From NCBI GenBank assembly GCA_913055625.1, contig CAJXJW010000007.1, positions 171,643-203,642 of the forward strand: a stretch of 32,000 nucleotides of DNA, in the 5' to 3' direction. Positions 1,576-32,000 of this stretch are shown here, piece by piece (positions within the stretch are counted from its first letter, which is position 1; the number at the start of each line of letters is the position of its first letter). Below the pieces are notes generated by a model. It saw only the letters and a list, made by a program, of their open reading frames with translations, had not been told where the DNA came from and did no database searches. A program made the position numbers and the translations under genes. Origin of the DNA: an uncultured Pseudomonadota bacterium (GTDB lineage: Bacteria > Pseudomonadota > Gammaproteobacteria > Steroidobacterales > Woeseiaceae).

Positions 1576-1576
1576 C

Positions 1577-4431: not shown

Positions 4432-4470
4432 CGCGTTGCGGGGACCGTCGGCAAGGCACCGGAGCAGGGC

Positions 4471-6817: not shown

Positions 6818-6937
6818 GGGCATTGCCACCGGCAGTACCGGCGCGCATTGCGACCTGTGCACACCAAAAACGCCACCCGTCTGTGGTATCAAGCCCAGCG
6901 TGATCTGCATGGAGGCCGGCGCGTGCCGGCAACGTGA

Positions 6938-8218: not shown

Positions 8219-8236
8219 TCGGCCAAGGACGCCATT

Positions 8237-13856: not shown

Positions 13857-13872
13857 GGCCCGGGCTCGCGGT

Positions 13873-14628
13873 TCAACCGGGGCCGGACCGCCTGCCGGCG
13901 AGCGAACCGAACACGTGCGGCGCCAGGTGGGCAAGGGCGCGCACACGGCCGAATTTCTCCTCCCGGCGATAGATGCGGTAGATGTCGAGCGACTTGGCCA
14001 GCTTGTTGGACGACAGCGAGCCGCGCGAGCGGTAGTAGGTCGCGTGACACCCGGGGTAGCGCCGGGCGACGGTGCCGTCGCGGGTCAGCGCGAGCCAGAG
14101 GCCCCAGTCCTGCCCGCGGCGCACGTCCGGCATGTAGCGCTTGCCGAGCTGTGCCTGGTCGAATGCGACGGTGAGGCAGCCGATCGGGCAGCCGCGGAGA
14201 AAATCCGTGTGCGTCAGTCGCTCGGGCGCCGACAGGATCCCGGCGTCGCGGCGGGTGGACGCATTGACGACGGCATAGTCGCCGTAACTGAATGCGACCT
14301 GGTGCGCCGCCATGAACGGAATCTGCGAGGCCAGCTTGGATTCGTTCCAGGTGTCGTCGCTGTCGAGAAACGCGACGTAGCGGCCGCTTGCGGCGTCGAT
14401 GCCCGCGTTGCGCGCCTGGGCGGCACCGGCGTGGGGCTGCCGCACGAGACGGACGTGCGGAAACCGGCGGCCGAGGCGCTCGACGACGAGGGCCGTGTCG
14501 TCCACCGAACCGTCGTCGACGATGATATGCTCCGCAGGTGCCAGCGACTGGGCAGCGACCGACCGGATGTTGCGCTCGATAACGCCGGCCGCGTTGTAGG
14601 CTGCAGTGATGACTGACACACCATCCAT
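13873..14628 (-). CDS. Family 2 glycosyltransferase (GT-A fold)
   Basis: 'VSVITAAYNAAGVIERNIRSVAAQS', 'IIVDDGSVDDT', and the DxD-type 'VAFLDSDDTW'. Start set at ATG 14628. The ORF-track extension to 15018 is Arg/Pro-rich and has no homology signal. Confidence 0.8.
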   Translation of the reverse strand: MDGVSVITAAYNAAGVIERNIRSVAAQSLAPAEHIIVDDGSVDDTALVVERLGRRFPHVRLVRQPHAGAAQARNAGIDAASGRYVAFLDSDDTWNESKLASQIPFMAAHQVAFSYGDYAVVNASTRRDAGILSAPERLTHTDFLRGCPIGCLTVAFDQAQLGKRYMPDVRRGQDWGLWLALTRDGTVARRYPGCHATYYRSRGSLSSNKLAKSLDIYRIYRREEKFGRVRALAHLAPHVFGSLAGRRSGPG

Positions 14629-14691
14629 CGATACATGGCTCTCCCGGTTCGGCGCCCGACCGTATCCTATCCCGCCTCTGCGACTCAAGTG

Positions 14692-15738
14692 ATGTCCCCG
14701 GCCGTATTGCCCGACGAGACGGCGGCGGGTCGGCGTCCCGGGAGCCCGTCGACGGCGCCGCGGGATGCGTTGTGGGTGGCCTGGAACGACCACCGGCGCA
14801 CGACCGGCCTGTGCGATGCCTGGGACGTCCCGCTCGAGGTGGTCCGGGCCGGTATCCGGGGGCCATTGCGCTGGATCGAGCTGCCGTTGCGGACACTTGG
14901 CCTGCTGCGGCGCCGCCGGCCCGCAACGCTGTTCGTGCAGAACCCGTCGCTGGCCCTCACGGCACTCGCGGTGCTGGTCCGTCCGCTGTTCGGCTACCGG
15001 CTGGTGGTCGACGCACACAACGAGGGCGTGCGGCCTTACGACCGTCCGTACCGGGCCGTGCGATGGCTGACACGGCGCATGCTGCGCGCGGCGGACTGGA
15101 CCGTCGTATCGAACGCCGGCCTTGAGCGGGACGTGATCGATGCCGGCGGGCGCGCGCTGGTGCTGGCGGACCCGCTGCCGCTTGCCGCGGCAACGAGAAA
15201 GGCGGCGAGGGCGTCCGTCGACGTGGTCGTCGTCGCGACGTACCGGCCCGATGAACCGATCCAGGCGCTGCTCGACGCCGCGGCGGCCTTGCCGGATCAG
15301 CGCTTCGCGTTCACGGGGGATTCGCGGCGATTCGGACGCGCCAGACCCGACATACCCAACAACGTATCGTTGACCGGGTTCCTCGACGACGCGGACTACT
15401 GGGACCTGTTGCGACAGGCCCGGGTCGTCTGCGACCTGACGCTGAAGCCCGACTGCCTGGTCTGTGGCGCTTACGAAGCGCTGGCCGTCGGCAGGGCGAT
15501 GGTGCTCTCGGACAACGTACCGACCCGAGCCCTGTTCGGCGACGCGGCGGTGCTGACCGGCAGCGCACCCGGCGAAATTGCCGGCGCAATGCGCGCGGCG
15601 CTCGATCGCAGCGACGCGCTGAGCACGGCAGCGGCGCGCTTGCGGGACCGCTATCCGGCCGATTGGGACGTCAACAGTGCGCAGGTTCAGCAGGCGATCT
15701 GGCCGTCGTCGGACCGGCAGGTGCAGGGGGCGGCCTGA
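14692..15738 (+). CDS. GT-B fold glycosyltransferase (group 1-like); start uncertain
   Basis: The C-terminal half '..VVVATYRPDEPIQALLDAA..FTGDSRR..LTGFLDDADYWDLLRQARVVCDLT..CGAYEALAVGRAMVLSD' resembles group 1 GTs. Candidate starts are ATG 14635 (only 6 nt from the divergent GT2 start) and ATG 14692. The first Rossmann strand 'ALWVAWND' begins later still. Confidence 0.55.
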   Translation: MSPAVLPDETAAGRRPGSPSTAPRDALWVAWNDHRRTTGLCDAWDVPLEVVRAGIRGPLRWIELPLRTLGLLRRRRPATLFVQNPSLALTALAVLVRPLFGYRLVVDAHNEGVRPYDRPYRAVRWLTRRMLRAADWTVVSNAGLERDVIDAGGRALVLADPLPLAAATRKAARASVDVVVVATYRPDEPIQALLDAAAALPDQRFAFTGDSRRFGRARPDIPNNVSLTGFLDDADYWDLLRQARVVCDLTLKPDCLVCGAYEALAVGRAMVLSDNVPTRALFGDAAVLTGSAPGEIAGAMRAALDRSDALSTAAARLRDRYPADWDVNSAQVQQAIWPSSDRQVQGAA

Positions 15739-16808
15739 TGGATTCGTTGCCGCGCATCGTGTTTTTCAATATCAACGGCTCGGGCATGGGACACCTGAGC
15801 CGCTGCCTCGCGTACGCGCGCCGGCTGCGTGGCCAGGCACGACCGATATTCTTCTCGCTGGCCTCGGCGATCGAGATCATCGAGGAGATGGGGTTCGAGG
15901 CGGACTACTTCGTGTCGGAGTTCTGGTCCCGGGCTCACATCAGCGCGTGGAATCGCGAACTGGCCGTGCGCTTCGGCCTGTTCCTGGAGGAGGTGCGGCC
16001 GAGTGCCGTGGTCTTCGACGGAACCTGGCCGTTTCACGGGTTCATGGATGCCTGTTTCGCGGCGAAGGTGCCGCGCAAGGTCTGGTCGAACCGCGGCCTG
16101 CACAAGCCGGGATTCGCGCCGGTGCCCGTCAGCGAACGCGAGTTCGACCTGGTGCTCGAGCCCGGCGAGATCGGGGCGGCATACGCCGTCGTGCAGGACG
16201 AAACGCCCGGCCGCAAGGTGCGAATTCCGCCGGTCACGATTTTCGCCGGGCAGGAGTTACTCGAACGGAACGACGCCCGCGACGCGCTCGGCCTGGAGCG
16301 GGATGGCCGCTACGTGTTGTTCTCACTCGGACCGGGCAACCTGAAGGACGTCGGCGAAATCGCGCAGGGACTCATTGGCGTGTTCCGGGCGAGCGAATTC
16401 AGGATCGTGTGGGCCTGTGCCCCGATATCCGTCCGCGATGTCGACGTCCCGGACGACGTACTGCCGATCAGCGTTTTCCCCCTGGCGAAGTACATGCGTG
16501 CCTTCGACGGCTTTGTCGGCGCGGCCGGGTACAACGCGTGCTGCGAGGTGCTGCAGTCCGGCGTGCCCGGCATCCTGTTGCCGAACAAGCTCGTCGCCGA
16601 CGACCAGCAGAGGCGCGCGGAGACGATTGCAGCGCATGCGCGCGTCGTCGTGTCGGCATGCGAGTCGAGCGCAGAGCAGGAGCAGGCGCTGCTGGACCTG
16701 CGTCGGCTGGCCAGCATGCCGCCGCCGGCGGGGCAGGGCCCGGATCTTGACGGTGCCGATCGTGCTACGGACGAGATTCTGCGGCTGCTGTCGGGGAGCG
16801 CGGCGTGA
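15738..16808 (+). CDS. GT-B glycosyltransferase, MurG/GT28-GT1-like, module copy A
   Basis: N-terminal glycine loop 'RIVFFNINGSGMGHLSRCLAYARRL'. The C-terminal donor site 'VGAAGYNACCEVLQSGVPGILLPNKLVADDQQRRA' resembles the MurG-type 'xAGxxTxxExxxxGxPxxxxP...DQxxNA'. ATG 15738 overlaps the preceding TGA by 1 nt. Confidence 0.6.
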   Translation: MDSLPRIVFFNINGSGMGHLSRCLAYARRLRGQARPIFFSLASAIEIIEEMGFEADYFVSEFWSRAHISAWNRELAVRFGLFLEEVRPSAVVFDGTWPFHGFMDACFAAKVPRKVWSNRGLHKPGFAPVPVSEREFDLVLEPGEIGAAYAVVQDETPGRKVRIPPVTIFAGQELLERNDARDALGLERDGRYVLFSLGPGNLKDVGEIAQGLIGVFRASEFRIVWACAPISVRDVDVPDDVLPISVFPLAKYMRAFDGFVGAAGYNACCEVLQSGVPGILLPNKLVADDQQRRAETIAAHARVVVSACESSAEQEQALLDLRRLASMPPPAGQGPDLDGADRATDEILRLLSGSAA

Positions 16809-17353
16809 GTCTCGATGATGAGATCGTCGATGTCCGTCGCACGGTACAGCGCCTGGCCGACGAATCGGAGCCCGTGCTGTTGCGCCGCTATGCGCTCTGG
16901 CACCCGGTTGGTGAACGACGAACCCTGTGCCGGCGGCTGCGCCGGGCGCTGGGTCGCGTACTGCGTGCCGTCCGACTGCGTCCCACGGCTCCGGTGGAAC
17001 CGTGGCGCGTCGACCTGGAGCATGCCGGCTGCGGCGACCCGGTCCGGCCGTTCGTCATCTGGGCAATCGGCGCCGACCGGCAGCGGCTGGCGCAGGCGTG
17101 CGTCGGCTTCCGGCGCATGCTGCAGGACTCGCCTGGACGCGTGCCGGTGCTGGTGACGGATGTGGCGGACTTTCGCGCGTTCTCGCGGCTGGGCTGGCTC
17201 GTCGAATACGTGCCCAGGCTGTCCGAACCCGCCTCGGCGTACGGTAACCGGAAACTCCGCCATCTCGCGGCGCTGTACCGGGACGTGCCGGTGCTGCCGG
17301 TCAGCGCCGGCCTGGCCCGCGACGTGACCCTGGAGCAATTGCGGCTTGACTGA
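16805..17353 (+). CDS. Hypothetical protein, small partner of module copy A (no motif I recognise)
   Basis: GTGA start/stop overlap with the upstream GT-B gene. It has a paralog at 19190..19771 that shares 'PVLVTDVAxFxxFSRLGWLVEY'. Conservation between the two copies supports real coding. Confidence 0.55.
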   Translation: MSLDDEIVDVRRTVQRLADESEPVLLRRYALWHPVGERRTLCRRLRRALGRVLRAVRLRPTAPVEPWRVDLEHAGCGDPVRPFVIWAIGADRQRLAQACVGFRRMLQDSPGRVPVLVTDVADFRAFSRLGWLVEYVPRLSEPASAYGNRKLRHLAALYRDVPVLPVSAGLARDVTLEQLRLD

Positions 17354-18416: not shown

Positions 18417-18422
18417 GTGCGA

Positions 18423-19151
18423 CTAGCCGAACAGCCCCTTCAGGAACCGGCGCCGCGGCTTCAGCGCGGGTAGCGTCCCGGTGTCACCGGGCTTCCGCGC
18501 CAGTCCCCAGCGCCCGTTGTTGATGATATGCAGATCCGTGTAGCCGAGCCTGGGAACGAGGATGTCGAAAACCATGCGCACCGCCGGCGTCGCGCGCTCG
18601 TCGGCGCTGGCCTGGCGCCAGTGCGCCGGTTCCTTCGCCATGCCGGACGCGGCTTCGCCGATCGTCCACGGGAGATCGTCGAAGAGGATCCACCCTCCCG
18701 GGCGCAGCAGAAAGTCCACGAGCACGAAGCCGAATCCCGTTGCGTCCCACGTGTGGCCGCCGTCGAAATAGCAGAGATCGAACTGTGGGCGCGGCGATTG
18801 CTGGATCATTCGGGCAAGCTCCCACGTGTACGACCGTTCCGCGAAGATTGTTTCGACGCGATGGGTCAACCCGAGTCTGGCAAGGACTTGATGGATGTTC
18901 GGGTCGCGGCGAGCTGCCGTGGTTCTGTCGACCGTCACGAGGTGTCCGTGCCCGCGGTCCTCGAGGATCGCGGCGATGTACGCGCTGCTCTTGCCATGGT
19001 AGAAACCGATCTCGAGGATCTGCTGCAGGTCGTGCCGGGACATCACGTCCCGGAGCAGCGAAGCTTCGGAATGCACCATGTAGTCGAGGTCGCCGAAGGT
19101 CGTGCGAACGTTGTCAAAGTTGTCCAATTTTCCGGATTCCTGCCTCTGCAT
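18423..19151 (-). CDS. Class I SAM-dependent methyltransferase (O-methyltransferase-like)
   Basis: Motif I-like 'QILEIGFYHGKSSAYIA', 'HLVTVD', 'FDLCYFDGGHTWD', 'LLRPGGWILFDD'. Start set at ATG 19151 ('MQRQESGKL..'). The ORF-track extension to 19376 is antisense to the next gene. Confidence 0.7.
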   Translation of the reverse strand: MQRQESGKLDNFDNVRTTFGDLDYMVHSEASLLRDVMSRHDLQQILEIGFYHGKSSAYIAAILEDRGHGHLVTVDRTTAARRDPNIHQVLARLGLTHRVETIFAERSYTWELARMIQQSPRPQFDLCYFDGGHTWDATGFGFVLVDFLLRPGGWILFDDLPWTIGEAASGMAKEPAHWRQASADERATPAVRMVFDILVPRLGYTDLHIINNGRWGLARKPGDTGTLPALKPRRRFLKGLFG

Positions 19152-19189
19152 TGCAATCGGGGAGCCCCGACCGCCGGGCCACGGCACGT

Positions 19190-19771
19190 ATGATACGTGA
19201 CGACGAAACCGAATTGATCGAGCGATTTCGAGCGGCGTCGTCGCCCGGTGCGGGCGGCGAGCCCGATTCGCGTTACGCCTTGAGCCATCCGCCGCGCCCG
19301 CCGGGACTGTACTGGAGGTTGCGCTGGTTCGCGGGCCGCGTCGTTCGATGGTTGCGAGCCAGGCGGCTTCTGGCATCGAACCCCTGGCCGGTCAGCCTGA
19401 CGTACGCCGGCTTCGACGCCCGTGCGAAACCGCTGGTCGTCCTGGCAATCGGCACGCACCCGGATGCGCTGGTCGCATCCTGCCGCAAGCTTGCCGGAGT
19501 GCTCCGGTCGTTTCCGGAGTTTGCGCCGGTTCTCGTGACCGACGTGGCGCGCTTCGCGTTCTTTTCGCGGCTCGGCTGGCTCGTGGAGTATCTGCCGGAT
19601 ATCGCCGGGTCCGACGCGGACTACCCGGAGCGCAAGTTCCGCCTGCTTGCGCGTCGCTACCGCGGCGCGCCGATCATTCCGCTGGGTGCGGCGAGCGAGG
19701 CAGCGTTCGACGAATCCGGGCTGCGGGCGTTGTTGATGGCCGGGCCCCGGGGACCGGCGGCGCGGCCCTGA
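19190..19771 (+). CDS. Hypothetical protein, small partner of module copy B (paralog of 16805..17353)
   Basis: 'PLVVLAIGTHPDALVASCRKLAGVLRSFPEFAPVLVTDVARFAFFSRLGWLVEYLPDI' aligns with 'PFVIWAIGADRQRLAQACVGFRRMLQDSPGRVPVLVTDVADFRAFSRLGWLVEYVPRL'. Start set at ATG 19190, because the ORF-track start at 18740 is antisense to the methyltransferase. Confidence 0.55.
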   Translation: MIRDDETELIERFRAASSPGAGGEPDSRYALSHPPRPPGLYWRLRWFAGRVVRWLRARRLLASNPWPVSLTYAGFDARAKPLVVLAIGTHPDALVASCRKLAGVLRSFPEFAPVLVTDVARFAFFSRLGWLVEYLPDIAGSDADYPERKFRLLARRYRGAPIIPLGAASEAAFDESGLRALLMAGPRGPAARP

Positions 19772-19804
19772 GGGCCGGTATCGGCGTCAACGCGTCATGC
19801 CGGG

Positions 19805-20851
19805 CTATCGAAATCGACGCTTCGACCAATTCTCCAGCCACCGTTCGGCCGGTAGGAAGCCGTACTCGGCTGCGACACGCTCGGCATCCGGGCGCAGTTC
19901 CTCCGCGTACCGGGCCCGTTCCTCGGCCGTCAGCGAGAACCGGATTCTGCGGCGGTTCTGGGGGCGAACCGTCCACGCCATCTCGTCGATGCCGAGAAAC
20001 GCGCAGACCTGCTTCATGACCGACCGCGGTTTCCGGCACAACTGGTCGAAATCCACGAGAAGAATGTTCTCGCGCGGGATCCTGGACGCAAAGAGATCGA
20101 GGTGGGCTGCGTAGCGGGAAAGGCGAAGGCAATGCCGAACGCTCCCGGTATCGCCGGTCTTGCCCAGCGTATGAGCCAGATGCGACTCTATCCGGTCCAC
20201 CGGGTCGCGAAGGAGGTAGGCGATCCGCGTTTCGGCTCCGAGGTTTGCAATTCGGGCAGGAACGTTCTTCGTCGCCGGAAGCTTCGCGTAGTTCGGCGAT
20301 ACGTCCAGCGTCCAGGCATGTTTCGCCGGGTCGAAGTCAAAGCGCCAGTCATAGTTCAACGCTGAGTGTGAGTTCCGGTAGAGCCTGGAAAAATAGTTGA
20401 TCTCTTTCGTGAAGCTCTTTCCGGGGACTTCGACGTTCGTGCCGCACAGGGCAGGGTGCTTCGAGAGCATGCGATGCAAGGTTGTCGTTCCGGCCTTCAT
20501 GGCACCGATCACGATGAAGTGGCGGCCGACCGGCTCGATGCCGGGACCGCTGGCCACCGAGAACGCCCGTGCGCCGAGCTCGCCATCGCGTCCCTCCACG
20601 GCGCATTCGATGTGCGTCGCTGCCGGAGGCGTCTTGATGCTAACGTGATCCGTGCGCGGGCCCAGGGCCCGTCGCTCCTCCGCGAGCAGGCGTCGGCGCC
20701 TGAAGTAGCGGACGTACACACTTGAGCCGCGAACGCCGGCGGGGTCGAAGCGAATCTCTACGTGAGCGGCAGCCCTGACGCGGAAACGATTGCTGTCGTT
20801 CAGGGATTCGGTCGCGCTTCGCTGCGGCGACGTACTAGATGTCGAGCTCAT
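19805..20851 (-). CDS. Sulfotransferase (PAPS-dependent family)
   Basis: 5'-phosphosulfate-binding loop 'IVIGAMKAGTTTLHRML' and 3'-phosphate-binding motif 'YLLRDPVDRIESHLAH'. ATG 20851 gives a ~110-aa N-terminal extension and a 17-nt overlap with the upstream ADH gene. In-frame GTG 20557 is a shorter alternative. Confidence 0.8.
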   Translation of the reverse strand: MSSTSSTSPQRSATESLNDSNRFRVRAAAHVEIRFDPAGVRGSSVYVRYFRRRRLLAEERRALGPRTDHVSIKTPPAATHIECAVEGRDGELGARAFSVASGPGIEPVGRHFIVIGAMKAGTTTLHRMLSKHPALCGTNVEVPGKSFTKEINYFSRLYRNSHSALNYDWRFDFDPAKHAWTLDVSPNYAKLPATKNVPARIANLGAETRIAYLLRDPVDRIESHLAHTLGKTGDTGSVRHCLRLSRYAAHLDLFASRIPRENILLVDFDQLCRKPRSVMKQVCAFLGIDEMAWTVRPQNRRRIRFSLTAEERARYAEELRPDAERVAAEYGFLPAERWLENWSKRRFR

Positions 20852-21980
20852 CGAGCGCCTCGGTCACGATGGACCTGACGTCGGCTTCCGTCGCATCGCG
20901 CAGATTGTTCTCTGCACGGCCGGGCGCGAACATCTGATTCGACAACGCGAGGACAGATTCCTTGTCCGGCACAAACCGGGAAACGTGCTTGCTGACGTCG
21001 ATTTTCTCGAACAATGCTGACAGGCCCTCGGCCAGTTCCGAGGGCCGGCGAAACCCGACGCTGCGCGCCAGGTCCTGCAGCCTGCCGTCGTCCGCCGCGG
21101 CATTGAACCTGAGCAGTGCCGGCAGCGTGAAGCTGCAGGCCAGCCCGTGCGGCAGTTCGAAATTCGAGGTCACCGGGTAGGAGATCGCGTGCGCGAGTGC
21201 CGTTCGGCTCTGGCTGATGGCGAGGCCGGCCAGCGTGCTGGCCTGGATCATGGCAGCCCGCGCCTCGATGTTGTCGGGTTGTTCGACGACCCGGGGAAGG
21301 TTGCGGATCGATTGCTGCAGCGACCGGGTGGCGAGTCCGATCGACACCGGCGTGGCATTGCGGTTCCAGCTCGATTCCAATGCATGCGACACCGCATCGA
21401 GGCCCGACGCAACCGTCACGGACTCCGGAAGTCCCAGTGTCAGCTCGGGGTCCAGGATGGCGTGCTGCGGGAAGAGATCATTGGCGGCAAGGGAATGTTT
21501 CTTCTTGCCCGCCCGGTCCCAGACCGTACCGAACGGCGTGACCTCTGCCCCGGTTCCGGCTGTCGTTGGCACAGCGATGACCGGCAGTGCAGGCGATACG
21601 TCGATTCGGCTCGTTCCGGCGAGCAGCGCATCGAGCGCGGTTCCCGCCGGGAGACCGAGCAGCTTTGCAAGCGCCTTGGCCGTGTCGATGACGCTGCCGC
21701 CGCCCACGGCCAGCAGGATGGCCGGGTCCTCGCGGCGTACGCGCTCCGCCTGGGCCTGTATGTCGCGAACGTCGGGGTTCGGTGCGACGTCATCGAGTAC
21801 GGCGACGATTCTTTTCCCGAATGTCTGTTCGAGGTTGTCGACGAGTCCGCGGCGGCGAAAGCCGGCGGAGGTAACCACCAGTACACGCGATTCCTCGACC
21901 AGCCCGGACAGTCGCCTGGCGGCGCCGATATCGAACAGGATCCGGACGGGGTTGTTGTAGGTCCAGGTCTCGTTGCGCAT
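20835..21980 (-). CDS. Iron-containing (group III) alcohol dehydrogenase; by context a phosphonoacetaldehyde reductase (PhpC/FomC-like)
   Basis: 'AVGGGSVIDTAKALAKL' and the metal-binding His-rich region 'LAHAISYPVTSNFELPHGLACS'. It lies directly downstream of ppd in the same operon. Confidence 0.7.
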   Translation of the reverse strand: MRNETWTYNNPVRILFDIGAARRLSGLVEESRVLVVTSAGFRRRGLVDNLEQTFGKRIVAVLDDVAPNPDVRDIQAQAERVRREDPAILLAVGGGSVIDTAKALAKLLGLPAGTALDALLAGTSRIDVSPALPVIAVPTTAGTGAEVTPFGTVWDRAGKKKHSLAANDLFPQHAILDPELTLGLPESVTVASGLDAVSHALESSWNRNATPVSIGLATRSLQQSIRNLPRVVEQPDNIEARAAMIQASTLAGLAISQSRTALAHAISYPVTSNFELPHGLACSFTLPALLRFNAAADDGRLQDLARSVGFRRPSELAEGLSALFEKIDVSKHVSRFVPDKESVLALSNQMFAPGRAENNLRDATEADVRSIVTEALDELDI

Positions 21981-22013
21981 GTTTCGACTGCGTCCCGATC
22001 TCGCCGGCGCGAC

Positions 22014-26533: not shown

Positions 26534-28227
26534 CGGCAACGTCGAAAACCGAAGGCGGATCGCCGGTGCCGAAATCAGTGCCGAACAACAACCTGTCGGG
26601 GGTGCCGTTGTTCAAGGTCAAGCTCGAACTGGCACGTATGGTGCTGTCGATGAACCGGCTTGCGCAGGATTGCGCACTCGAGCCGAAAGTTCAGGCGAGT
26701 ATTCCCAGGCCGATGGACGTCGTGCGACTGCCACTGGAAGAGCTGGGCCGGAAATCGGAGAAGTTCGCCCGCGCGATGGCCCGGTCGCGCCCGGATTTTG
26801 AGAGTCATTTCCGGGACAACCAGAACCAGGCGATTGTCATGGCGTGGCAGATGGCGAACATCGCGGCCGGTTGCGAAAGAACGCGCTACGAGTATGCGTG
26901 CGCGTGCCTGCGTGCGCACCGTCAGGGCACCGGGTACGCGATCCTCAAGGCGCTCGCAGAGGCCGAGGACAGCAAGTCGAAGTTCGTCACCGCCGCCAGG
27001 AAACGGATCGCAAGGCTGGCCTGGAAGTCGGGGGATACCGAGGTTGCGCTGCGCGCCATGAGGTCGCAGCGTGGGCGGGCGGCGCGCGCCCAGTACCGCT
27101 CGTGGCTAGGCATCTCGACCGTGCGCGACGGCCTGTTGATGGCCGAGGCGGGCGATATCGACAGTGCCCGACTGGTCTTGGCCGGGGGCTTGCGTGCGAA
27201 CGGCATGGACGACGAGGTGGCCGATGCCGTCGCAGCGGTCTATCTCAAGGCATCGTCGCTGAACGGTGAGTTCGACGTGCCGGCCCTCGTCGCGGAGGGC
27301 CAGGCGGCCGAGGCAGACCCGCCTGGCGCGCCATTGCCCATCATCCTGTCCGGGTTCGGCTGGTCCGGCTCCGGCGCCGTCGCCGATTTCCTGACCGGAC
27401 ATTCGGACGTCGTCGACGTGTTCGCGGGTCGGGAGATGGGGCTGTGGACGGGAAAGTACGGTCTCGATCGCCTCTACGCTCACTTCCATGCGAGAGGCTA
27501 CAATCGGCGCTTGCTGCTCGAGTTCCTCACCCGCCACTGTTTCGGGCACCGCTTCCTGGGTGACAGCAAAGGCACCAAGAGCCTGGGTGGCATGTGGGCC
27601 TGGCTGGACGATGCGCAGAAGCGCCGACATCTCGCCCAACTCTGGGCATGGCTCGATGCCATCGCTCGCTGGCACGAAGATCCGGAATGCGCGCTGCTCG
27701 ACGCGTTCCAGGCGTTCTCGATGGGATTCCTGTCGTTGCTGGAGGGGCGCGAGGGCAGCAAGGTGTTCCTGTCGAACTGCATTCCATCGGACTCGATCGC
27801 CGGCATACGAATGTTTCGCGAGCCGGTCGTCATCGTCTCCTGGCGGGATCCGGGCGACGCGTACGCGTCCAAGTCCGCCGCTTTTCCCGATACCTCGCTG
27901 ACGTTCGAAGGCTGGCGATCGCAGTTGACGCGCCGCATCGACCGGTACCTGTCGGGCAAACGGGAAGTCGCCGACTGTGCCAGTGTCTGGCTGGACGTGT
28001 CGTTCGAAGAGTTCGTCCGGGACGCACGCTCGCGAGAGCGGTTGCTGGAGAGGCTCCAACTCGACAGTGCGGCGATGCAGTCGACCTTTGATCCCGCAGT
28101 CTCCGCGCGCAATATCGGCATTCATGAGCCGGGGGCGGGTGCTGCCCGCACAGGCTGGATTGAGCTTGCGCGTGCGGTCGCCGAATCGCGGCAAGTGGCG
28201 CAATCGATCGGGGCAGACCGGGACTGA
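26530..28227 (+). CDS. Two-domain protein: N-terminal alpha-helical region plus C-terminal sulfotransferase-fold domain
   Basis: The C-terminal half carries the loop 'PIILSGFGWSGSGAVADFL', 'VVIVSWRDPGDAYASKS' (RDPxD..S, a 3'-phosphate-binding-like motif) and 'VSFEEFVRDARSRERLLERLQLD'. The N-terminal ~270 aa are Ala/Arg-rich and look helical. The GTG 26530 start (GTGA overlap with the Stealth-1 stop) is inferred; a later ATG near 26638 is possible. Confidence 0.5.
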   Translation: MTATSKTEGGSPVPKSVPNNNLSGVPLFKVKLELARMVLSMNRLAQDCALEPKVQASIPRPMDVVRLPLEELGRKSEKFARAMARSRPDFESHFRDNQNQAIVMAWQMANIAAGCERTRYEYACACLRAHRQGTGYAILKALAEAEDSKSKFVTAARKRIARLAWKSGDTEVALRAMRSQRGRAARAQYRSWLGISTVRDGLLMAEAGDIDSARLVLAGGLRANGMDDEVADAVAAVYLKASSLNGEFDVPALVAEGQAAEADPPGAPLPIILSGFGWSGSGAVADFLTGHSDVVDVFAGREMGLWTGKYGLDRLYAHFHARGYNRRLLLEFLTRHCFGHRFLGDSKGTKSLGGMWAWLDDAQKRRHLAQLWAWLDAIARWHEDPECALLDAFQAFSMGFLSLLEGREGSKVFLSNCIPSDSIAGIRMFREPVVIVSWRDPGDAYASKSAAFPDTSLTFEGWRSQLTRRIDRYLSGKREVADCASVWLDVSFEEFVRDARSRERLLERLQLDSAAMQSTFDPAVSARNIGIHEPGAGAARTGWIELARAVAESRQVAQSIGADRD

Positions 28228-28308
28228 CATGCGTGGAGCGGCAACGTCTGGCGGGGCGACCCGCTACAACCGGTCTGACGTCAAACCAATTACAGCAAAC
28301 CAGGACAA

Positions 28309-29940
28309 GTGCACGTGGCTCGTTTTTCTTCCGTCATAGTACCCCTGCGATCGCGGATTGCCGCGCTCATCGCGAAACATTCCCCGGATCGGTACAAGCG
28401 CATCATCGAGAACCGACATCCGGGGGTTCTCGTGGTCGGGGACCCGATGAGCGATGTCAGGAGCCTGAAGGAGCGGGCCGCCGAGCAACTCCTGCACTCG
28501 CTCGAGCAGGTGGGACTGCCGGTGCTGGCGAAAATCGACGACCGCAACTGCTGGATCGTGCTTGCCGGCACCGGTGACGACGAGGATGACGTCGAGCGGC
28601 TGGTCGGTGAACTGATCGATGCCGGCATGCGGATCTCCGTGGCGATGCGGGGACGCCGCACCAAGAGGATTTCGAGCCGGGAACGGCTTCAGAGGCTGAA
28701 GCAGAACAAACCGCTGGACATCCTGTCGATCCGGGCGGGCTTCGTCTGGATGCGAAATCGCGGCTACAAACAGGTCGGCTGGCACGCCGCGGTACGCGTA
28801 CATTTCTACGACTGGAATACCGAACACAAGTCGTTCGTCGCACGCAGGGCCGGGAACCTGCCGCCGATGATCGATGATCTCGGGCAAGAAAAGTCCCGGA
28901 TAACGGGTCTTTGCCGGCCCGAGACCCGGCTGGACAAAGTGCGGTTTCCGATCGACGTGGTGTACACCTGGGTCGACGGCAACGACCCCCGGTGGAACGA
29001 GAAGCGCAATCGGCGTGCCGCCGAGATGGGCCGCGACCTGCATCGGGTATCCAACAGCCAGACGCGCTATATCAACCGTGACGAACTGCGCTATTCGCTG
29101 CGTTCCCTTTATTACTACGCGCCGTGGATTCGCAAGATATACCTCGTGACGGATGACCAGGTTCCGGACTGGCTGAACGCCGACAATGACCTGTTGCAGG
29201 TGATCGACCATAAGGACCTGTTTCCCGAGCATGCATCGCTGCCGACGTTCAACAGTCACGCAATCGAATCCGTGTTGCACAGAATTCCGGGGCTTTCGGA
29301 ACAGTTCCTGTACATGAACGACGACGTATTCTTCTCGTCCGTCGTGCACCCGGAATCGTTCTTCGAGGTGAGCGGTATTGCGCGGACGTTCCTGAGCCGG
29401 TCGATGATTCCGTTCTGCAACGAGAACCGCTCCGAGATCGCGTCGGAGTGGGGCGCGATGAACGCGAACGACCTCATCGTCGAGAAGTTCGGTGCCATGA
29501 TGCCGTACAAGACCAAGCACACGCCGCTTGCGTTGCGCCGGTCCTTGTTGCAGGACTTGGAAGACCAGTTCCGGGTGCATTTCGAGCGCCTGCGCAGCAC
29601 GCCGTTTCGCACCGCCAACGACCTTGCGCCGACCTCCACCCTGCACGCGTACTTCGGGCTGGCCAAAGGCTACGTCGTTCGCAGCGACATCGCCTATCGC
29701 TATGTCAACCTGGCGAGGCCGGATCTCAAGCGGGCGCTCGACGCCATCGCCTACAGCCGGCATTCCATGGTCTACTGCCTGAACGACACTGAGATCGAGG
29801 ATCATGCGGAGTTCGACTGGGACGCGCAGGAGTTTCACATCAAGACGTTCCTCAACATGATGTACCCGTACCAGGCGCCATGGGAGCAGCCGGAACCCGA
29901 CGATTCACCGCTGGAAACCAGCAGGACGGACGCACGATGA
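28309..29940 (+). CDS. Stealth-family hexose-1-phosphate transferase, copy 2
   Basis: 'IDVVYTWVDGNDPRW', 'NRDELRYSLRSLYYYAPWIRKIYLVTDDQVPDWL', 'LPTFNSHAIESVLHRIPGLSEQFLYMNDDVFF', 'KHTPLALRRS', 'NDLAPTSTLHAYFG'. Starts are GTG 28309 or GTG 28315. The ~215-aa N-terminal region is unassigned. Confidence 0.85.
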   Translation: MHVARFSSVIVPLRSRIAALIAKHSPDRYKRIIENRHPGVLVVGDPMSDVRSLKERAAEQLLHSLEQVGLPVLAKIDDRNCWIVLAGTGDDEDDVERLVGELIDAGMRISVAMRGRRTKRISSRERLQRLKQNKPLDILSIRAGFVWMRNRGYKQVGWHAAVRVHFYDWNTEHKSFVARRAGNLPPMIDDLGQEKSRITGLCRPETRLDKVRFPIDVVYTWVDGNDPRWNEKRNRRAAEMGRDLHRVSNSQTRYINRDELRYSLRSLYYYAPWIRKIYLVTDDQVPDWLNADNDLLQVIDHKDLFPEHASLPTFNSHAIESVLHRIPGLSEQFLYMNDDVFFSSVVHPESFFEVSGIARTFLSRSMIPFCNENRSEIASEWGAMNANDLIVEKFGAMMPYKTKHTPLALRRSLLQDLEDQFRVHFERLRSTPFRTANDLAPTSTLHAYFGLAKGYVVRSDIAYRYVNLARPDLKRALDAIAYSRHSMVYCLNDTEIEDHAEFDWDAQEFHIKTFLNMMYPYQAPWEQPEPDDSPLETSRTDAR

Positions 29941-31208
29941 GCGACGAGACTGCGCAGGGCGTGCTGCCGCCCAGGGCACTGATCTACAGCTTCCGGTTCG
30001 ATTCCGCGAAGGCCTTGCTGGCCCGCGCGGAGTTATCGGTGCCGGAAAAGCTCCGTGCCCGCCTGCTGAAGGCTGTCGAGTACAACGAAGCCAGCACCTT
30101 GCCCGTCGTAGCACCGCGGGACGCCGCCGAACCCGTGCCGGTCGGGCGCTGGTGGGAGGTCTGGCCGTCCGACACGCACCTCAGGGTCAAGGGATACGTA
30201 TCGGCGGAGTGCCTGCGCGTGGGCCTGTTCGTCAATGATCGACTGGTCAAGCTCGTCAACACGGTGCCCCGCCACGGCGACGCTCAAGGCCGGCGGGTAT
30301 TTCGGTTCAACCTGAAGTCCGACATCATGAAAGCCCTGCCGAAAAAGACGGTCATCGGCATCGGGTCGGAAGTGGGCTACCTCCGGCGCAGGAGCGGGGG
30401 ACTGTCGTACCGGGATCCTCGTTTGAACGGCACGGGCACCCTGTTCAGGAAGCTCGCTTCCGGACATTTCCTCACGAAGAAAGGCCGGCTGCAGCGACGG
30501 CTCGACGAGAACGAGGAATGGAAGGAATCGATACTCGATGCGTACACCGTGTTTCGGAAGTATTTCGAAGAGCGCTTCGATTACAAACCCTACATCATTT
30601 GTGGCACATTGCTGGGCCATCACAGGGAGGGTGACTTCATTGCGCACGATGACGATATGGACGTCGCCTATTTCTCGCGACACTCCCGGCCGGAAGACGT
30701 CCGGCAGGAAATGGCCACGATCGTTCAGGCAATGCTCGCGGACGGCTACGACATCAAGCTCGCTCGCAAGCCCGGGTTTTTCAAGCCGACGATCGGAGGG
30801 CTCTCGTTCGACGTGTTCCCGATGTGGCACGACCTGGACTGTCTCTGGATGATGAACACTACGCGCCAGCGCAGTGGGCCGGAACGAATCCTGCCGGTGT
30901 CGACGGCAAGATTTCGCGGCGTCGACGTGTACGTGCCGAACCAGATCGAGGCGTACATCGCCTCCGAGTACGGCCCGAACTGGCGGGTGCCGGATCCCGG
31001 TTACCGTTCGATCGGGGAACCGGGAACATCCGAGTACCTCTTGCGGAGCTGCCTCAGCGTCGAAGAGGTTGCCGAAATTCTGGATCGGGTTGCTGCGCTG
31101 CGGGCGGAAGGCATTTCGACGGGAAAACTGTCGGTGGCGGAACGGGACCTTCAGGCCTGGGTGGCCGGCGCAAACGACACGGACGGGACACTGGCGGACC
31201 AGCAATGA
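29937..31208 (+). CDS. LicD-family phospho(no)-group transferase with an unassigned ~190-aa N-terminal domain
   Basis: LicD core 'YIICGTLLGHHREGDFIAHDDDMDVAYFS' (30591-30665), then 'FDVFPMW' and 'YIASEYGPNWRVP'. ATG 29937 overlaps the Stealth-2 TGA (ATGA). Confidence 0.8.
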   Translation: MSDETAQGVLPPRALIYSFRFDSAKALLARAELSVPEKLRARLLKAVEYNEASTLPVVAPRDAAEPVPVGRWWEVWPSDTHLRVKGYVSAECLRVGLFVNDRLVKLVNTVPRHGDAQGRRVFRFNLKSDIMKALPKKTVIGIGSEVGYLRRRSGGLSYRDPRLNGTGTLFRKLASGHFLTKKGRLQRRLDENEEWKESILDAYTVFRKYFEERFDYKPYIICGTLLGHHREGDFIAHDDDMDVAYFSRHSRPEDVRQEMATIVQAMLADGYDIKLARKPGFFKPTIGGLSFDVFPMWHDLDCLWMMNTTRQRSGPERILPVSTARFRGVDVYVPNQIEAYIASEYGPNWRVPDPGYRSIGEPGTSEYLLRSCLSVEEVAEILDRVAALRAEGISTGKLSVAERDLQAWVAGANDTDGTLADQQ

Positions 31209-32000
31209 GCTCTTCGAGACCGATCTACTTTCACGTTGGCGCGCACAAGACCGCGACGACCTACATGCAGTCGAGGCTGCGTTCCAATCGTCAGCGCCTG
31301 CGCAACCACGGCGTCCATTTCGTGGACCTGTGGGCCAAGGCGCCGGCTCTCAAACGCTACCGCAAGCGTCTGAAGCGGCTCCTCGAGGCGCCGGCAGTCA
31401 ATGACCGGAAGCTCGGCAAACTGGCGGCTGTCCTGCGGCGGCTGGTCGATGCGGACTCGTCCGATGACAAATCCCGGATCGTTCTGTCGTACGAGAACGC
31501 GCTCGGCGGGTTCGACCTCACGCGGAGCGCGGCGCCGTACCCGCACGCAGCCGCGGCCGTCGCACACATCCGGGAGGCGTTCCCCGACCAGGATGTCAAG
31601 ATCCTGTTCTCCATACGGTCGCTGGACCGCTTCCTCGAATCGGGTTACCTGCAGAATGTGCTGTCGCGACAGGAAACACGCACGTTTGCCCGTTACCTTG
31701 GCGGGGTCGATATCGACGGCCTGAGTTGGTTGCCGGCGATCCGCGACATGGAGTCGGTGGTGGGCGCCGAAAACCTGCTGATCTGGAACTACGAGAATTT
31801 CCCGGCCAACGAGTCGACGGTGTGGGACCTGCTCCTGGGACTGGCGGATGCCGATAGCCTCCTTGTACGTCCTGCCAAGAAGAGCAACCAGTCGTTGTCC
31901 GCGAAAGGCCTGAAGTTCATGCGCCGCATCAACTCCGTCGCGACCCCGTCCGAGGCGAAGAAGTTCCGGACGTTCATCAAGGAAAACTTCGGGCCGGAGT
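31205..32000 (+). CDS. Sulfotransferase-fold protein (P-loop 'HKTATT' type); 3' end outside the window
   Basis: Not in the ORF track because there is no stop codon before the window ends. My manual translation from ATG 31205 (ATGA overlap with the LicD-like stop) is open to base 32000: 'MSSSRPIYFHVGAHKTATTYMQSRLRSN...ILFSIRSLDRFLESGY...'. 'GxHKTxTTxxQ' resembles the PAPS 5'-phosphosulfate-binding loop. Confidence 0.5.
   Translation, partial: MSSSRPIYFHVGAHKTATTYMQSRLRSNRQRLRNHGVHFVDLWAKAPALKRYRKRLKRLLEAPAVNDRKLGKLAAVLRRLVDADSSDDKSRIVLSYENALGGFDLTRSAAPYPHAAAAVAHIREAFPDQDVKILFSIRSLDRFLESGYLQNVLSRQETRTFARYLGGVDIDGLSWLPAIRDMESVVGAENLLIWNYENFPANESTVWDLLLGLADADSLLVRPAKKSNQSLSAKGLKFMRRINSVATPSEAKKFRTFIKENFGPE

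What the first reader, a model, noticed from the sequence alone, without database searches (positions are those of the whole stretch)
13873..32000. One locus combines Stealth phosphotransferases, a phosphonate pathway, a LicD transferase and sulfotransferase-fold genes
About 18 kb holds the following genes. There are four or five glycosyltransferases and two Stealth-family hexose-1-phosphate transferases. There is a complete PEP mutase / phosphonopyruvate decarboxylase / reductase set and a LicD-family head-group transferase. There is one canonical sulfotransferase, two divergent sulfotransferase-fold proteins and one methyltransferase. Each family is known separately. Their joint presence predicts a glycan carrying phosphodiester, C-P phosphonate and sulfate ester groups at once. 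I do not recognise this combination as a described capsule or EPS type. No export or polymerisation genes (Wza/Wzb/Wzc, Wzx/Wzy, KpsMT) are in the window, so the assembly route is unresolved.
Basis: partly seen in the sequence, partly recalled or inferred. Interest (0 to 1): 0.8.

Follow-up and report, generated by a model that had tools for sequence, protein, structure and literature searches.

The report
Phosphonate-, phosphate- and sulfate-decorated capsule locus
This is a real, conserved capsule-type gene cluster from an uncultured gammaproteobacterium that should build a sugar-phosphate polymer carrying a carbon-phosphorus group (2-hydroxyethylphosphonate) and probably sulfate and methyl groups, a surface-polysaccharide chemistry nobody has yet isolated.

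Summary
The flagged region holds four glycosyltransferases, two Stealth hexose-1-phosphate transferases, PepM/Ppd/PhpC-type reductase, a LicD-family transferase, one canonical sulfotransferase, two divergent sulfotransferase-fold proteins and one methyltransferase.

- PepM is fused to an intact cytidylyltransferase, so the pathway ends in CMP-2-hydroxyethylphosphonate, the donor LicD needs.
- Two Wzi genes directly abut the region on the left.
- An identical metagenome contig shows KpsM/T/E/D-type export genes 4-8 kb past the window's right edge, followed by a WecA-like initiating transferase. No KpsC/KpsS was seen in the window or the extension.

So assembly is cytoplasmic and ABC-transporter dependent.

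The locus is one co-inherited unit. The same gene order recurs at about 50% protein identity in independent metagenome contigs. A core of HEP pathway, Stealth and a TPR-sulfotransferase-fold protein recurs in all eight contexts examined. Reduced versions exist in cultured Natronospira bacteriovora and Stenotrophomonas mori.

I found no characterised cluster or published structure that matches. The only isolated HEP-glycans come from two actinomycetes. I rate this a new variant of known kinds. The chemistry is inferred, not shown.

The parts
6938..8218 (+). TviB-type UDP-GlcNAc C6-dehydrogenase (probable precursor supply, giving UDP-GlcNAcA); membership in the locus is uncertain
   Evidence: NCBIfam NF011729, 615 bits, above the 592 cut-off
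8237..9262 (+). NAD-dependent nucleotide-sugar epimerase/dehydratase (probable precursor supply)
   Evidence: Pfam Epimerase 1e-59; below cut-off for GalE and TviC
10891..12366 (+). Wzi capsule-assembly outer-membrane protein, copy 1
   Evidence: PF14052, 264 bits; a Wzi homolog sits next to the GT2 ortholog in L091
12366..13856 (+). Wzi capsule-assembly outer-membrane protein, copy 2
   Evidence: PF14052, 250 bits
13873..14619 (-). GT2 glycosyltransferase, TuaG-like (the longest ORF runs to 15018, but the conserved part and codon bias start near 14619)
   Evidence: PF00535 3e-30; NF047683 TuaG 183 bits, below cut-off; GC3 gene call
14770..15738 (+). GT-B glycosyltransferase, weak GT1-like (an alternative start is at 14635)
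   Evidence: PF13524 3.5e-8; orthologs at >=53% identity keep the order GT2 / this gene / GT28a
15738..16808 (+). GT28_C/MurG-like GT-B glycosyltransferase a
   Evidence: PF04101 at cut-off; PDB UDP-glycosyltransferase YjiC E=9e-4
16805..17353 (+). Conserved 182-aa protein of unknown function (unk182)
   Evidence: No Pfam or NCBIfam hit; 53-62% identical orthologs at the same position in L087, L089 and L118
17346..18416 (+). GT28_C/MurG-like GT-B glycosyltransferase b (paralog of a)
   Evidence: PF04101; 65-73% identical orthologs in L087/L089, where GT28a also aligns to the same gene at 54-55%
18423..19151 (-). SAM-dependent O-methyltransferase (Methyltransf_24); start uncertain (19151, 19127 or 19187)
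   Evidence: PF13578 6e-17; orthologs align from residue ~73-81 of the longest ORF; start candidates
19190..19771 (+). Paralog of unk182 (42% identity at protein level to the orthologous genes); replaces the spurious ORF 19348-20019
   Evidence: tblastn to L087 and L089 at 46-53% identity in this frame; ATG at 19190
19805..20851 (-). Canonical PAPS-type carbohydrate sulfotransferase with a ~105-aa N-terminal extension; overlaps the reductase gene by 17 nt
   Evidence: PF13469 7e-17 and PF00685 4e-13; motifs GAMKAGTTTL and RDPVDRIES; PDB heparan-sulfate N- and 3-O-sulfotransferases 2e-8
20835..21980 (-). PhpC-type Fe/Zn alcohol dehydrogenase (phosphonoacetaldehyde reductase, giving 2-HEP)
   Evidence: TIGR03405 366 bits, best family by far but below the 424 cut-off; next to Ppd in 71 of 77 CT-PepM loci
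22014..23138 (-). Phosphonopyruvate decarboxylase
   Evidence: TIGR03297 484 bits, above the 312 cut-off
23138..24439 (-). Fusion of cytidylyltransferase (PF01467, HxGH motif) and PEP mutase (EDKxxxxxNS)
   Evidence: PF01467 3e-14 plus PF13714 2e-57; TIGR02320 411 bits; motifs; the Fom1 precedent makes CMP-HEP (PMC6697681)
24932..26533 (+). Stealth hexose-1-phosphate transferase 1
   Evidence: Stealth CR1-CR4; PDB CpsY 1e-50 and GNPTAB 1e-40
26566..28227 (+). TPR-like helical domain plus divergent sulfotransferase-fold domain (STlike553). The P-loop is GFGWSGSGA, with no Lys/Arg; the RDPxDxYAS motif is retained
   Evidence: AlphaFold2 pLDDT 83.8; Foldseek top hits are sulfotransferases; family of only 30 proteins, none with a Pfam domain on record; directly adjacent to a Stealth gene in 8/8 contexts
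28315..29940 (+). Stealth hexose-1-phosphate transferase 2
   Evidence: Stealth CR1-CR4
29937..31208 (+). LicD-family phospho(no)-alcohol transferase (DDDMD motif)
   Evidence: PF04991 27 bits; 17/17 homologs match PF04991; family profile vs FKRP 7e-10
31205..32000 (+). Divergent sulfotransferase-fold protein (unk308), cut by the window edge; the full gene ends at window-equivalent position 32131
   Evidence: AlphaFold2 pLDDT 90.8 and Foldseek sulfotransferases 4e-5; motifs GAHKTATTYMQ and IRSLDRFLES

Best explanation
The flagged genes belong to one ~30-34 kb surface-polysaccharide (capsule/EPS) locus that depends on an ABC transporter. It lies in a high-GC gammaproteobacterial genome, and its closest PepM relatives are in Xanthomonadales, Woeseiaceae and Natronospira. 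Everything is assembled in the cytoplasm.

Proposed pathway:
1. A WecA-like transferase (just outside the window) and four glycosyltransferases build the glycan.
2. The two Stealth enzymes transfer hexose-1-phosphate from UDP-sugars, creating phosphodiester links.
3. PepM, Ppd and the PhpC-type reductase convert PEP to 2-hydroxyethylphosphonate (HEP).
4. The cytidylyltransferase domain fused to PepM activates HEP to CMP-HEP.
5. The LicD-family enzyme transfers the phosphonyl group to a sugar hydroxyl. A second LicD-like domain, on a TPR protein just outside the window, may do the same.
6. The canonical sulfotransferase and the small sulfotransferase-fold protein add sulfate from PAPS, and the methyltransferase adds O-methyl.
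7. The finished polymer leaves through KpsM/KpsT, KpsE and KpsD homologs. The two Wzi proteins may hold it on the surface.

Shown here: family assignments, catalytic motifs, folds, gene order and conservation of the locus. Inferred: every substrate, the order of steps and the polymer itself.
For: Cytidylyltransferase-PepM fusion. The HxGH and EDKxxxxxNS motifs are intact. The PF01467-PepM fusion is a known architecture whose prototype, Fom1, makes CMP-HEP, and LicD-like transferases are the proposed downstream users (PMC6697681). No aminotransferase is present, so the product should be HEP rather than AEP.

Operon-like packing.
- pepM-ppd-adh-ST1 run head to tail on the minus strand, and ST1 overlaps adh by 17 nt.
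- Stealth1-STlike553-Stealth2-LicD-unk308 run on the plus strand, with 4-nt overlaps at the last two junctions (coordinates).

Export genes. L001 is identical to the window over 8,332 bp. Beyond the edge it carries ABC2_membrane, ABC_tran, a BexC/CtrB/KpsE-family protein (303 bits), a Poly_export/SLBB protein, and then a PF00953 transferase.

Conservation.
- Full synteny at 40-80% protein identity in L087 and L089/L090.
- Reduced versions in L088 (Woeseiaceae), L127, L128, L129 and cultured N. bacteriovora L126.
- The left side, Wzi-GT2-GT1like-GT28a-unk182, is conserved in short contigs.

TPR domains on capsule enzymes are a known feature of group 2 systems (PMC5974469).
Against: - There is no expression or chemical data. 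The organism is uncultured and has no named relative within 90% identity.
- KpsC/KpsS (PF05159), which are near-universal in classical group 2 capsules as I recall, were not found in the window or the extension. The lipid anchor and initiation step are therefore unclear.
- Wzi is normally associated with Wzy-dependent group 1 capsules.
- The reductase scores below the NCBIfam cut-off.
- The two large sulfotransferase-fold proteins lack the Lys/Arg of the 5'-phosphosulfate loop.
- The canonical sulfotransferase, the methyltransferase and the GT28-like pair are missing from L088, L128 and L129. Sulfation by ST1 is therefore lineage-specific.
- No PAPS-synthesis genes are in view.
Confidence: 0.68

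Rival explanations
1. HEP is a backbone building block rather than a pendant group. LicD (or, in S. mori, a TagF-like domain) attaches HEP to a sugar. A Stealth enzyme then puts hexose-1-phosphate on the free 2-OH of HEP. The product would be a teichoic-acid-like alternating phosphonate/phosphodiester polymer.
For: - The window plus extension has two Stealth genes and two LicD-like domains.
- In S. mori the Stealth domain is fused to a weak TagF-like Glyphos_transf domain, and no LicD homolog was detected. That is the architecture of bifunctional polymerases.
- TagF-like and Stealth enzymes are both established capsule polymerases (PMC5974469).
- HEP has a free hydroxyl, analogous to glycerol phosphate (chemistry).
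Against: - The Glyphos_transf hit is only 23 bits.
- In the few characterised phosphonoglycans I know of, the phosphonate is a side-group (from memory; the primary paper was not held).
- Four ordinary glycosyltransferases in the locus suggest a conventional glycan backbone.
- There is no biochemical precedent for a Stealth enzyme using a non-sugar acceptor.
Confidence: 0.17
2. The large TPR-sulfotransferase-fold proteins (STlike553, STlike630) are not sulfotransferases. They would use another nucleotide donor, or act as non-catalytic scaffolds or chain-length and termination factors for the Stealth polymerases. Under this reading only ST1 and unk308 could add sulfate, if any is added.
For: - Invariant GFGWSGSGA replaces the PKxGTT/PRSGxT loop, leaving no basic residue.
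- The gene is always directly adjacent to a Stealth gene (8/8 contexts) and always accompanied by HEP-pathway genes. The canonical ST1 is dispensable in several of these loci.
- N-terminal TPR domains in capsule polymerases mediate oligomerisation or interactions (PMC5974469).
- There is no detectable sequence similarity to ST1 by hhalign.
Against: - The fold matches sulfotransferases best.
- The 3'-phosphate-binding R...S motif (R427, S435) is invariant, which points to a PAP-type ligand.
- The Pfam Sulfotransfer_3 hit is weak but present.
Confidence: 0.35
3. The region is a chance juxtaposition of independent systems, for example an LPS or EPS glycosyltransferase block next to a small-molecule phosphonate pathway of the fosfomycin type, where Fom1 is also a CT-PepM fusion. 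No single product would combine the chemistries.
For: - GT1-like homologs at <=52% identity sit in unrelated contexts.
- The ST1/MT/GT28 module is absent from some related loci.
- The CT-PepM/Ppd/ADH trio occurs in many unrelated neighbourhoods across phyla.
Against: - The whole gene order is preserved at ~50% identity in L087 and L089/L090.
- The HEP genes abut KpsD directly in L088, L128 and L129.
- No small-molecule tailoring enzymes are present (no HEPD/MpnS, radical-SAM or ATP-grasp-type hits).
- A LicD-family transferase is translationally coupled to Stealth2.
Confidence: 0.06

Closest known systems
HEP-containing phosphonoglycans of the actinomycetes Glycomyces sp. [quoted passage not shown] 2014, as cited in PMC8942020 and PMC13576164)
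   Same: - PepM-Ppd-PhpC pathway producing 2-HEP that ends up on an exopolysaccharide.
- Related actinobacterial loci in my set (L055 Stackebrandtia, L057 Nonomuraea) have CT-PepM, Ppd and Fe-ADH.
- L057 also has LicD-like genes beside them.
   Different: - Gram-positive hosts.
- No Stealth, sulfotransferase-fold or Kps-type genes were detected near the actinobacterial PepM loci in my set.
- I could not read the primary paper, so I did not compare cluster content directly.
Stealth capsule polymerases of group 2 capsules (N. meningitidis serogroups A and X: CsaB, CsxA)
   Same: - Stealth CR1-CR4 hexose-1-phosphate transferases.
- Encoded in a locus exported by KpsM/T/E/D-type proteins.
- Cytoplasmic assembly (PMC5974469).
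   Different: - Two Stealth genes flank a TPR-sulfotransferase-fold gene.
- The locus also encodes a phosphonate pathway, LicD, sulfotransferases and four GTs.
- No KpsC/KpsS was found, and a WecA-like PF00953 gene sits next to kpsM.
- Wzi is present.
Nucleotidyl-activated phosphonate tailoring (PntC/LicC-type, Fom1 CyTase-PepM fusion; Rice et al. 2019, PMC6697681)
   Same: - PF01467 cytidylyltransferase fused to PepM (23.6% of PepM proteins have this fusion).
- Fom1 makes CMP-HEP.
- LicD-like transferases are the proposed users of the CMP-phosphonate.
   Different: - The biochemically characterised PntCs are PF12804 enzymes acting on AEP.
- Fom1 serves a small-molecule antibiotic pathway.
- Here the context is a Gram-negative capsule locus with Stealth and sulfotransferases.
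TagF-like teichoic-acid-like capsule polymerases (Cps1B, Cps7D, CslB; PMC5974469)
   Same: [quoted passage not shown]
- Large TPR domains attached to catalytic domains.
- The S. mori relative carries a weak TagF-like domain fused to Stealth.
   Different: - No TagF-like domain was detected in the window's proteins.
- Here the TPR domains are attached to sulfotransferase-fold and LicD-like domains.
Partial versions in cultured bacteria: Natronospira bacteriovora (GCA_030848495.1, L126) and Stenotrophomonas mori CPCC 101365 (L008)
   Same: - N. bacteriovora: unk308-like (39%), Stealth (45%), STlike553 (35%), LicD, GT2 (40%), CT-PepM (81%) and Ppd (67%) in one row.
- S. mori: CT-PepM (80%), Ppd, ADH, Stealth (46%), and an STlike630-like protein (34%).
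   Different: - Neither has the canonical ST1, the methyltransferase or the GT28-like pair.
- Each has only one Stealth gene.
- S. mori uses a Wzm/Wzt-like transporter beside cbs/metB-like genes, which looks like an O-antigen-type locus.
- Neither polysaccharide has been characterised, as far as the library shows.

Membership tests
Stealth protein family (hexose-1-phosphate transferases) | Four conserved regions CR1-CR4 in order | tested here: met
   Both proteins match PF17101, PF11380, PF17102 and PF17103 above cut-off. Stealth1 matches the solved Stealth proteins CpsY and GNPTAB.
Stealth protein family (hexose-1-phosphate transferases) | Transfer of sugar-1-phosphate from a UDP-sugar with release of UMP | not testable with these tools
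   Needs an enzyme assay.
PEP mutase | EDKxxxxxNS catalytic motif that separates PepM from other isocitrate-lyase-family members | tested here: met
   [10 protein letters not shown] at residue 260; TIGR02320 411 bits, above the 320 cut-off.
PF01467 cytidylyltransferase fused to PepM (Fom1-type) | N-terminal CTP_transf_like domain with the HxGH nucleotide-binding motif | tested here: met
   PF01467 at residues 12-131. The sequence VHPGHLNII and the later KGISST motif can be read directly.
Phosphonopyruvate decarboxylase | TIGR03297 equivalog score above cut-off; TPP N- and C-terminal domains | tested here: met
   484 bits vs cut-off 312; PF02776 and PF02775.
PhpC-type phosphonoacetaldehyde reductase | Membership of the phosphonate-associated Fe-ADH equivalog (TIGR03405) and adjacency to ppd | tested here: inconclusive
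   It is the best family by 170 bits, but 366 bits is below the 424 cut-off. Adjacency to Ppd is conserved in 71 of 77 loci.
LicD family (CDP-alcohol-type phosphotransferases, including FKRP/fukutin) | LicD nucleotidyltransferase-fold domain with a DxD metal-binding motif | tested here: met
   PF04991 27 bits, above the 22.6 cut-off. All 17 family members match. Invariant D238-D239-D240-x-D242. Profile vs FKRP E=7e-10.
PAPS-dependent sulfotransferases: ST1 (19805-20851) | 5'-phosphosulfate loop (PKxGTT-like, with Lys) and 3'-phosphate motif (RDPxxRxxS) | tested here: met
   GAMKAGTTTL and RDPVDRIES; PF13469 and PF00685 above cut-off; PDB NDST/3-OST hits.
PAPS-dependent sulfotransferases: unk308 (31205-32000+) | Sulfotransferase fold plus a basic residue in the 5'-PSB loop and the R...S 3'-PB motif | tested here: met
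   Foldseek top hits are sulfotransferases. K15 is nearly invariant, R138 is invariant and S146 is nearly invariant. No Pfam hit for this protein itself.
PAPS-dependent sulfotransferases: STlike553 (26566-28227) | Sulfotransferase fold plus a basic residue in the 5'-PSB loop and the R...S 3'-PB motif | tested here: inconclusive
   Fold met. 3'-PB motif met (R427, S435 invariant). The 5'-PSB Lys/Arg is not met, because the loop is GFGWSGSGA. The Pfam score is below cut-off (19.9-20.5 bits vs 27).
ABC-transporter-dependent (group 2-like) capsule system | KpsM (ABC-2 permease), KpsT (ATPase), KpsE (PCP-3) and KpsD (OPX) homologs | tested here: met
   All four lie on L001, which is identical to the window over the overlap, at window-equivalent 35859-40193. 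TIGR01010 BexC/CtrB/KpsE scores 303 bits, below the 437 cut-off.
ABC-transporter-dependent (group 2-like) capsule system | KpsC/KpsS (PF05159) beta-Kdo linker transferases | tested here: not met
   No PF05159 hit for any gene of the window or the 9-kb extension. The rest of the genome was not available. A PF00953 WecA-like gene sits next to kpsM instead, and this is conserved in L088 and L128.
Wzi capsule-assembly lectin | Caps_assemb_Wzi domain | tested here: met
   PF14052 at 264 and 250 bits for two tandem genes. N-terminal signal-peptide-like sequences can be read.

The most novel reading that the evidence does not exclude
2-Hydroxyethylphosphonate is built into the polymer backbone as a phosphonate analogue of the glycerol-phosphate spacer in teichoic-acid-like capsules. 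LicD-type (or, in S. mori, TagF-like) transfer from CMP-HEP would alternate with Stealth-catalysed hexose-1-phosphate transfer onto the HEP hydroxyl. The always-adjacent TPR-sulfotransferase-fold proteins would be a new, polymerase-associated enzyme family whose donor or role differs from classical PAPS sulfotransferases. The result would be a phosphatase-resistant, polyanionic 'phosphono-teichoic' capsule.
Probability: 0.15. Interest if true: 0.85.

Novelty: new variant of a known kind. Interest (0 to 1): 0.58.

Why it matters
Phosphonoglycans are thought to account for much of bacterial phosphonate capacity and for a large pool of marine dissolved organic phosphorus. Almost none have a known structure or assembly route (PMC6697681, PMC8942020, PMC8931226).

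This locus gives a complete, testable genetic blueprint for a Gram-negative HEP-glycan: synthesis, CMP activation, a candidate transferase, the polymerases and the exporter.

It also predicts three kinds of acidic group on one polymer (phosphodiester, phosphonate ester, sulfate ester). Such a polymer should be highly charged and partly resistant to phosphatases.

The work defines a rare, unannotated protein family (TPR plus sulfotransferase fold, no catalytic Lys) that is strictly linked to Stealth polymerases.

It also identifies cultured strains where the chemistry can actually be checked: Natronospira bacteriovora, Stenotrophomonas mori and S. daejeonensis.

Tried and rejected
- Exact look-up of the LicD protein with the longest-ORF start (442 aa) found nothing. 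The 423-aa start was right.
- The ORF 19348-20019(+) was rejected as spurious. The conserved gene is in another frame.
- hhalign of shallow 3-sequence alignments (unk308 vs ST1, STlike553 vs ST1) gave no significant match. I treated this as uninformative, not as negative evidence, because the folds were later confirmed by structure prediction.
- The promoter and terminator scans found fewer sites than shuffled sequence, so they say nothing about operon boundaries.
- The metagenome scan with the GT1-like protein returned mostly contigs under 3 kb. Its more distant homologs (<=52% identity) sit in unrelated contexts, so that gene alone is not a marker of the locus.
- The NCBIfam name 'PsrA' for the reductase family was followed up. 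It refers to a Burkholderia homolog implicated in lipid-peroxide detoxification, not to a glycan system.
- The primary paper on actinomycete HEP-glycans (PMC3993330) is not held.
- I considered the small-molecule phosphonate antibiotic reading (Fom1-like) and rejected it, because no tailoring enzymes are present and the HEP genes abut kpsD in related loci.

Full report
**Gene map.** The window is about 65% GC, so I called genes by codon-position GC bias and annotated them with Pfam and NCBIfam.

Positions 1-10877 are ordinary gammaproteobacterial housekeeping and sugar-nucleotide genes:
- a partial GT4, FabI, an MltD-like SLT/LysM protein, a methyltransferase, RNase H, DnaQ and NhaB
- a TviB-type UDP-GlcNAc 6-dehydrogenase (615 bits, above cut-off), an NAD-dependent epimerase and PGI

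Two tandem Wzi capsule-assembly genes follow (10891-13856).

**Observation check.**
- Four glycosyltransferases: GT2/TuaG-like, a weak GT1-like, and two paralogous MurG/GT28_C-like GT-B proteins.
- Two Stealth proteins with CR1-CR4. Stealth1 matches the solved Stealth proteins CpsY and GNPTAB at 1e-50 and 1e-40.
- PepM, with its diagnostic [10 protein letters not shown] motif.
- Ppd (TIGR03297, 484 bits).
- An Fe-ADH whose best family by far is the phosphonate-associated TIGR03405, although it scores below cut-off.
- A Methyltransf_24 methyltransferase.
- A canonical sulfotransferase with GAMKAGTTTL and RDPVDRIES motifs and heparan-sulfate sulfotransferase matches.

The LicD call rested on a 27-bit Pfam hit. 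I strengthened it: all 17 aligned family members match PF04991. The family profile also hits the catalytic domain of fukutin-related protein, a CDP-ribitol phosphotransferase, at E=7e-10 across an invariant DDDxD motif.

I tested the two 'divergent sulfotransferase-fold' proteins by structure prediction.
- STlike553 (26566-28227) models at pLDDT 83.8 as an N-terminal TPR-like helical domain plus an alpha/beta domain. Its best PDB matches are Stf9, the OLS and CurM sulfotransferase domains and TPST2.
- unk308 (31205 to past the edge) models at pLDDT 90.8. Its best matches are PAP-binding sulfotransferases.

One ORF I first listed (19348-20019) is spurious. The conserved gene there is ~19190-19771, a paralog of the unknown 182-aa protein at 16805-17353.

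PepM carries an N-terminal PF01467 cytidylyltransferase domain with an intact HxGH motif.
- This fusion is known. It occurs in 23.6% of PepM proteins.
- Its prototype, Fom1, converts HEP to CMP-HEP.
- LicD-like transferases have been proposed as the users of CMP-phosphonates (PMC6697681).

No aminotransferase is present, so the phosphonate should be 2-hydroxyethylphosphonate rather than AEP. This gives an unbroken chain: PEP, phosphonopyruvate, phosphonoacetaldehyde, HEP, CMP-HEP, and LicD-catalysed transfer to a glycan.

**Export route.** An exact-protein look-up found a JGI metagenome contig (L001) that is identical to the window over the 8,332 bp they share and runs 9 kb further. Past the window edge it encodes, in order:
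- the rest of unk308
- a 535-aa TPR protein whose C-terminus is a second LicD-like domain
- a 630-aa paralog of STlike553
- Poly_export/SLBB (KpsD-like), BexC/CtrB/KpsE-family, ABC ATPase and ABC-2 permease genes
- a PF00953 WecA-like transferase

The assembly route is therefore ABC-transporter dependent and cytoplasmic. That fits enzymes that use UDP-sugars, CMP-HEP, PAPS and SAM.

No KpsC/KpsS (PF05159) is in view. The WecA-like gene beside kpsM is conserved in L088 and L128. The system is therefore better called group 2-like, or a hybrid, than a classical group 2 capsule. Wzi next to a Kps-type exporter is also unusual.

**Is it one unit?** Yes.
- STlike553 belongs to a family of only 30 proteins among 5.8 billion. 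All are unnamed or labelled hypothetical, and none has a Pfam domain on record.
- I examined eight independent contexts: the window, L087, L088, L089/90, L126, L127, L128 and L129. In every one the gene lies directly next to a Stealth gene, usually between two, and HEP-pathway genes are present.
- L087 and L089/90 reproduce nearly the whole order at 40-80% protein identity: GT28a-unk182-GT28b-MT-unk182b-ST1-ADH-Ppd-CT.PepM-Stealth-STlike-Stealth-(LicD)-unk308-TPR.LicD-STlike630-KpsD-KpsE.
- Short contigs preserve the left side, Wzi-GT2-GT1like-GT28a-unk182.
- In L088, L128 and L129 the HEP genes abut kpsD directly, and ST1, the methyltransferase and the GT28 pair are absent.

The core is therefore HEP pathway + Stealth + TPR-sulfotransferase-fold protein + Kps exporter. 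The canonical sulfotransferase, methyltransferase and GT28 module is accessory.

**How rare is the combination?** I scanned one genome per species with CT-PepM and kept the 80 best loci, of which 77 gave any tblastn hit.
- The CT-PepM/Ppd/ADH trio is common across phyla, including archaeal MAGs.
- Only 2 loci have a Stealth gene within 10 kb (S. mori and a Rhodanobacteraceae MAG).
- 9 have a large ST-like protein, 7 have a LicD-like protein, and none has ST1, the methyltransferase, the GT28-like genes or Wzi.

The nearest cultured carriers are:
- Natronospira bacteriovora, with unk308-like, Stealth, STlike553, LicD, GT2, CT-PepM and Ppd in a row.
- Stenotrophomonas mori. Here the Stealth domain is fused to a weak TagF-like domain, no LicD was detected, and the transporter is Wzm/Wzt-like beside cbs/metB-like genes.

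**Open points.**
- STlike553 and STlike630 keep the invariant R...S 3'-phosphate motif but have GFGWSGSGA where PAPS sulfotransferases carry a Lys/Arg. They may be atypical sulfotransferases, may use another donor, or may be polymerase-associated scaffolds.
- The S. mori TagF-like-Stealth fusion, together with the pairing of two Stealth and two LicD-like domains here, leaves open that HEP is a backbone spacer rather than a side group.
- Nothing here shows expression or chemistry.

**Comparison with the literature.** Full-text searches found no description of a locus or polymer combining Stealth, a phosphonate pathway and sulfotransferases.
- A survey of ppm neighbourhoods states that, of ten HEP-branch families, only two have yielded products: N. 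maritimus methylphosphonate and the S. nassauensis EPS conjugate (PMC8942020).
- A 2026 paper lists HEP in glycans only from two actinomycetes (PMC13576164).

**Verdict.** The finding is a real and coherent locus. All of its parts belong to known families, and it is a new variant in how they are combined. It has two unusual features: the Stealth-linked TPR-sulfotransferase-fold family, and a Kps exporter with Wzi and WecA but no KpsC/S in view. I score interest at 0.58. It is a strong lead with cultured organisms available for testing, but every chemical statement remains an inference.

Noticed in passing
window 10891-13856: Two tandem Wzi (PF14052) paralogs sit next to a locus that is exported by KpsMTED-type proteins. 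Wzi is normally linked to Wzy-dependent group 1 capsules. A Wzi homolog is also adjacent to the GT2 ortholog in L091.
   Followed up: partly
window 16805-17353 and ~19190-19771: A pair of paralogous ~180-190-aa proteins with no Pfam or NCBIfam hit. Both are conserved at the same positions in L087 and L089, one between the two GT28-like genes and one between the methyltransferase and ST1. Function unknown.
   Followed up: partly
L001 8426-10033 (window-equivalent 32094-33701, minus strand): A 535-aa protein with N-terminal TPR repeats and a C-terminal LicD-like domain. In this domain the DDDxD motif is replaced by HDVGGFD, so it may be a second, possibly divergent, phospho(no)transferase.
   Followed up: partly
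L008 13642-16470 (Stenotrophomonas mori): A 942-aa fusion of a weak TagF-like Glyphos_transf domain with a full Stealth domain. It lies directly after CT-PepM/Ppd/ADH in what looks like an O-antigen-type Wzm/Wzt locus beside cbs/metB-like genes.
   Followed up: partly
L028 vs L030: The loci labelled Xanthomonas chitinilytica and 'Agaricicola taiwanensis' MAG (an alphaproteobacterial name) give essentially identical hit maps. This suggests a mis-binned or contaminating contig in the MAG.
   Followed up: no
L011, L012, L070, L072, L075-L077: Archaeal MAGs (Methanomassiliicoccaceae, Methanobrevibacter) carry CT-PepM/Ppd/ADH trios with 59-74% identity to the window's PepM. This points to inter-domain transfer of the HEP module.
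   Followed up: no
window 20001-32000 vs 12001-16000: GC falls from ~0.70 (12-16 kb) to 0.60-0.66 across the phosphonate/Stealth half of the locus. This is consistent with horizontal acquisition or a mosaic origin for that half.
   Followed up: no
window 19805-20851: The canonical sulfotransferase has a ~105-residue N-terminal extension that is conserved in its L087 and L089 orthologs and has no domain hit.
   Followed up: no
L127 900-1358: In the most divergent relative, a stand-alone 152-aa PF01467 cytidylyltransferase sits between the reductase and LicD. A separate activating enzyme may therefore exist in that lineage, in addition to or instead of the PepM-fused one.
   Followed up: no
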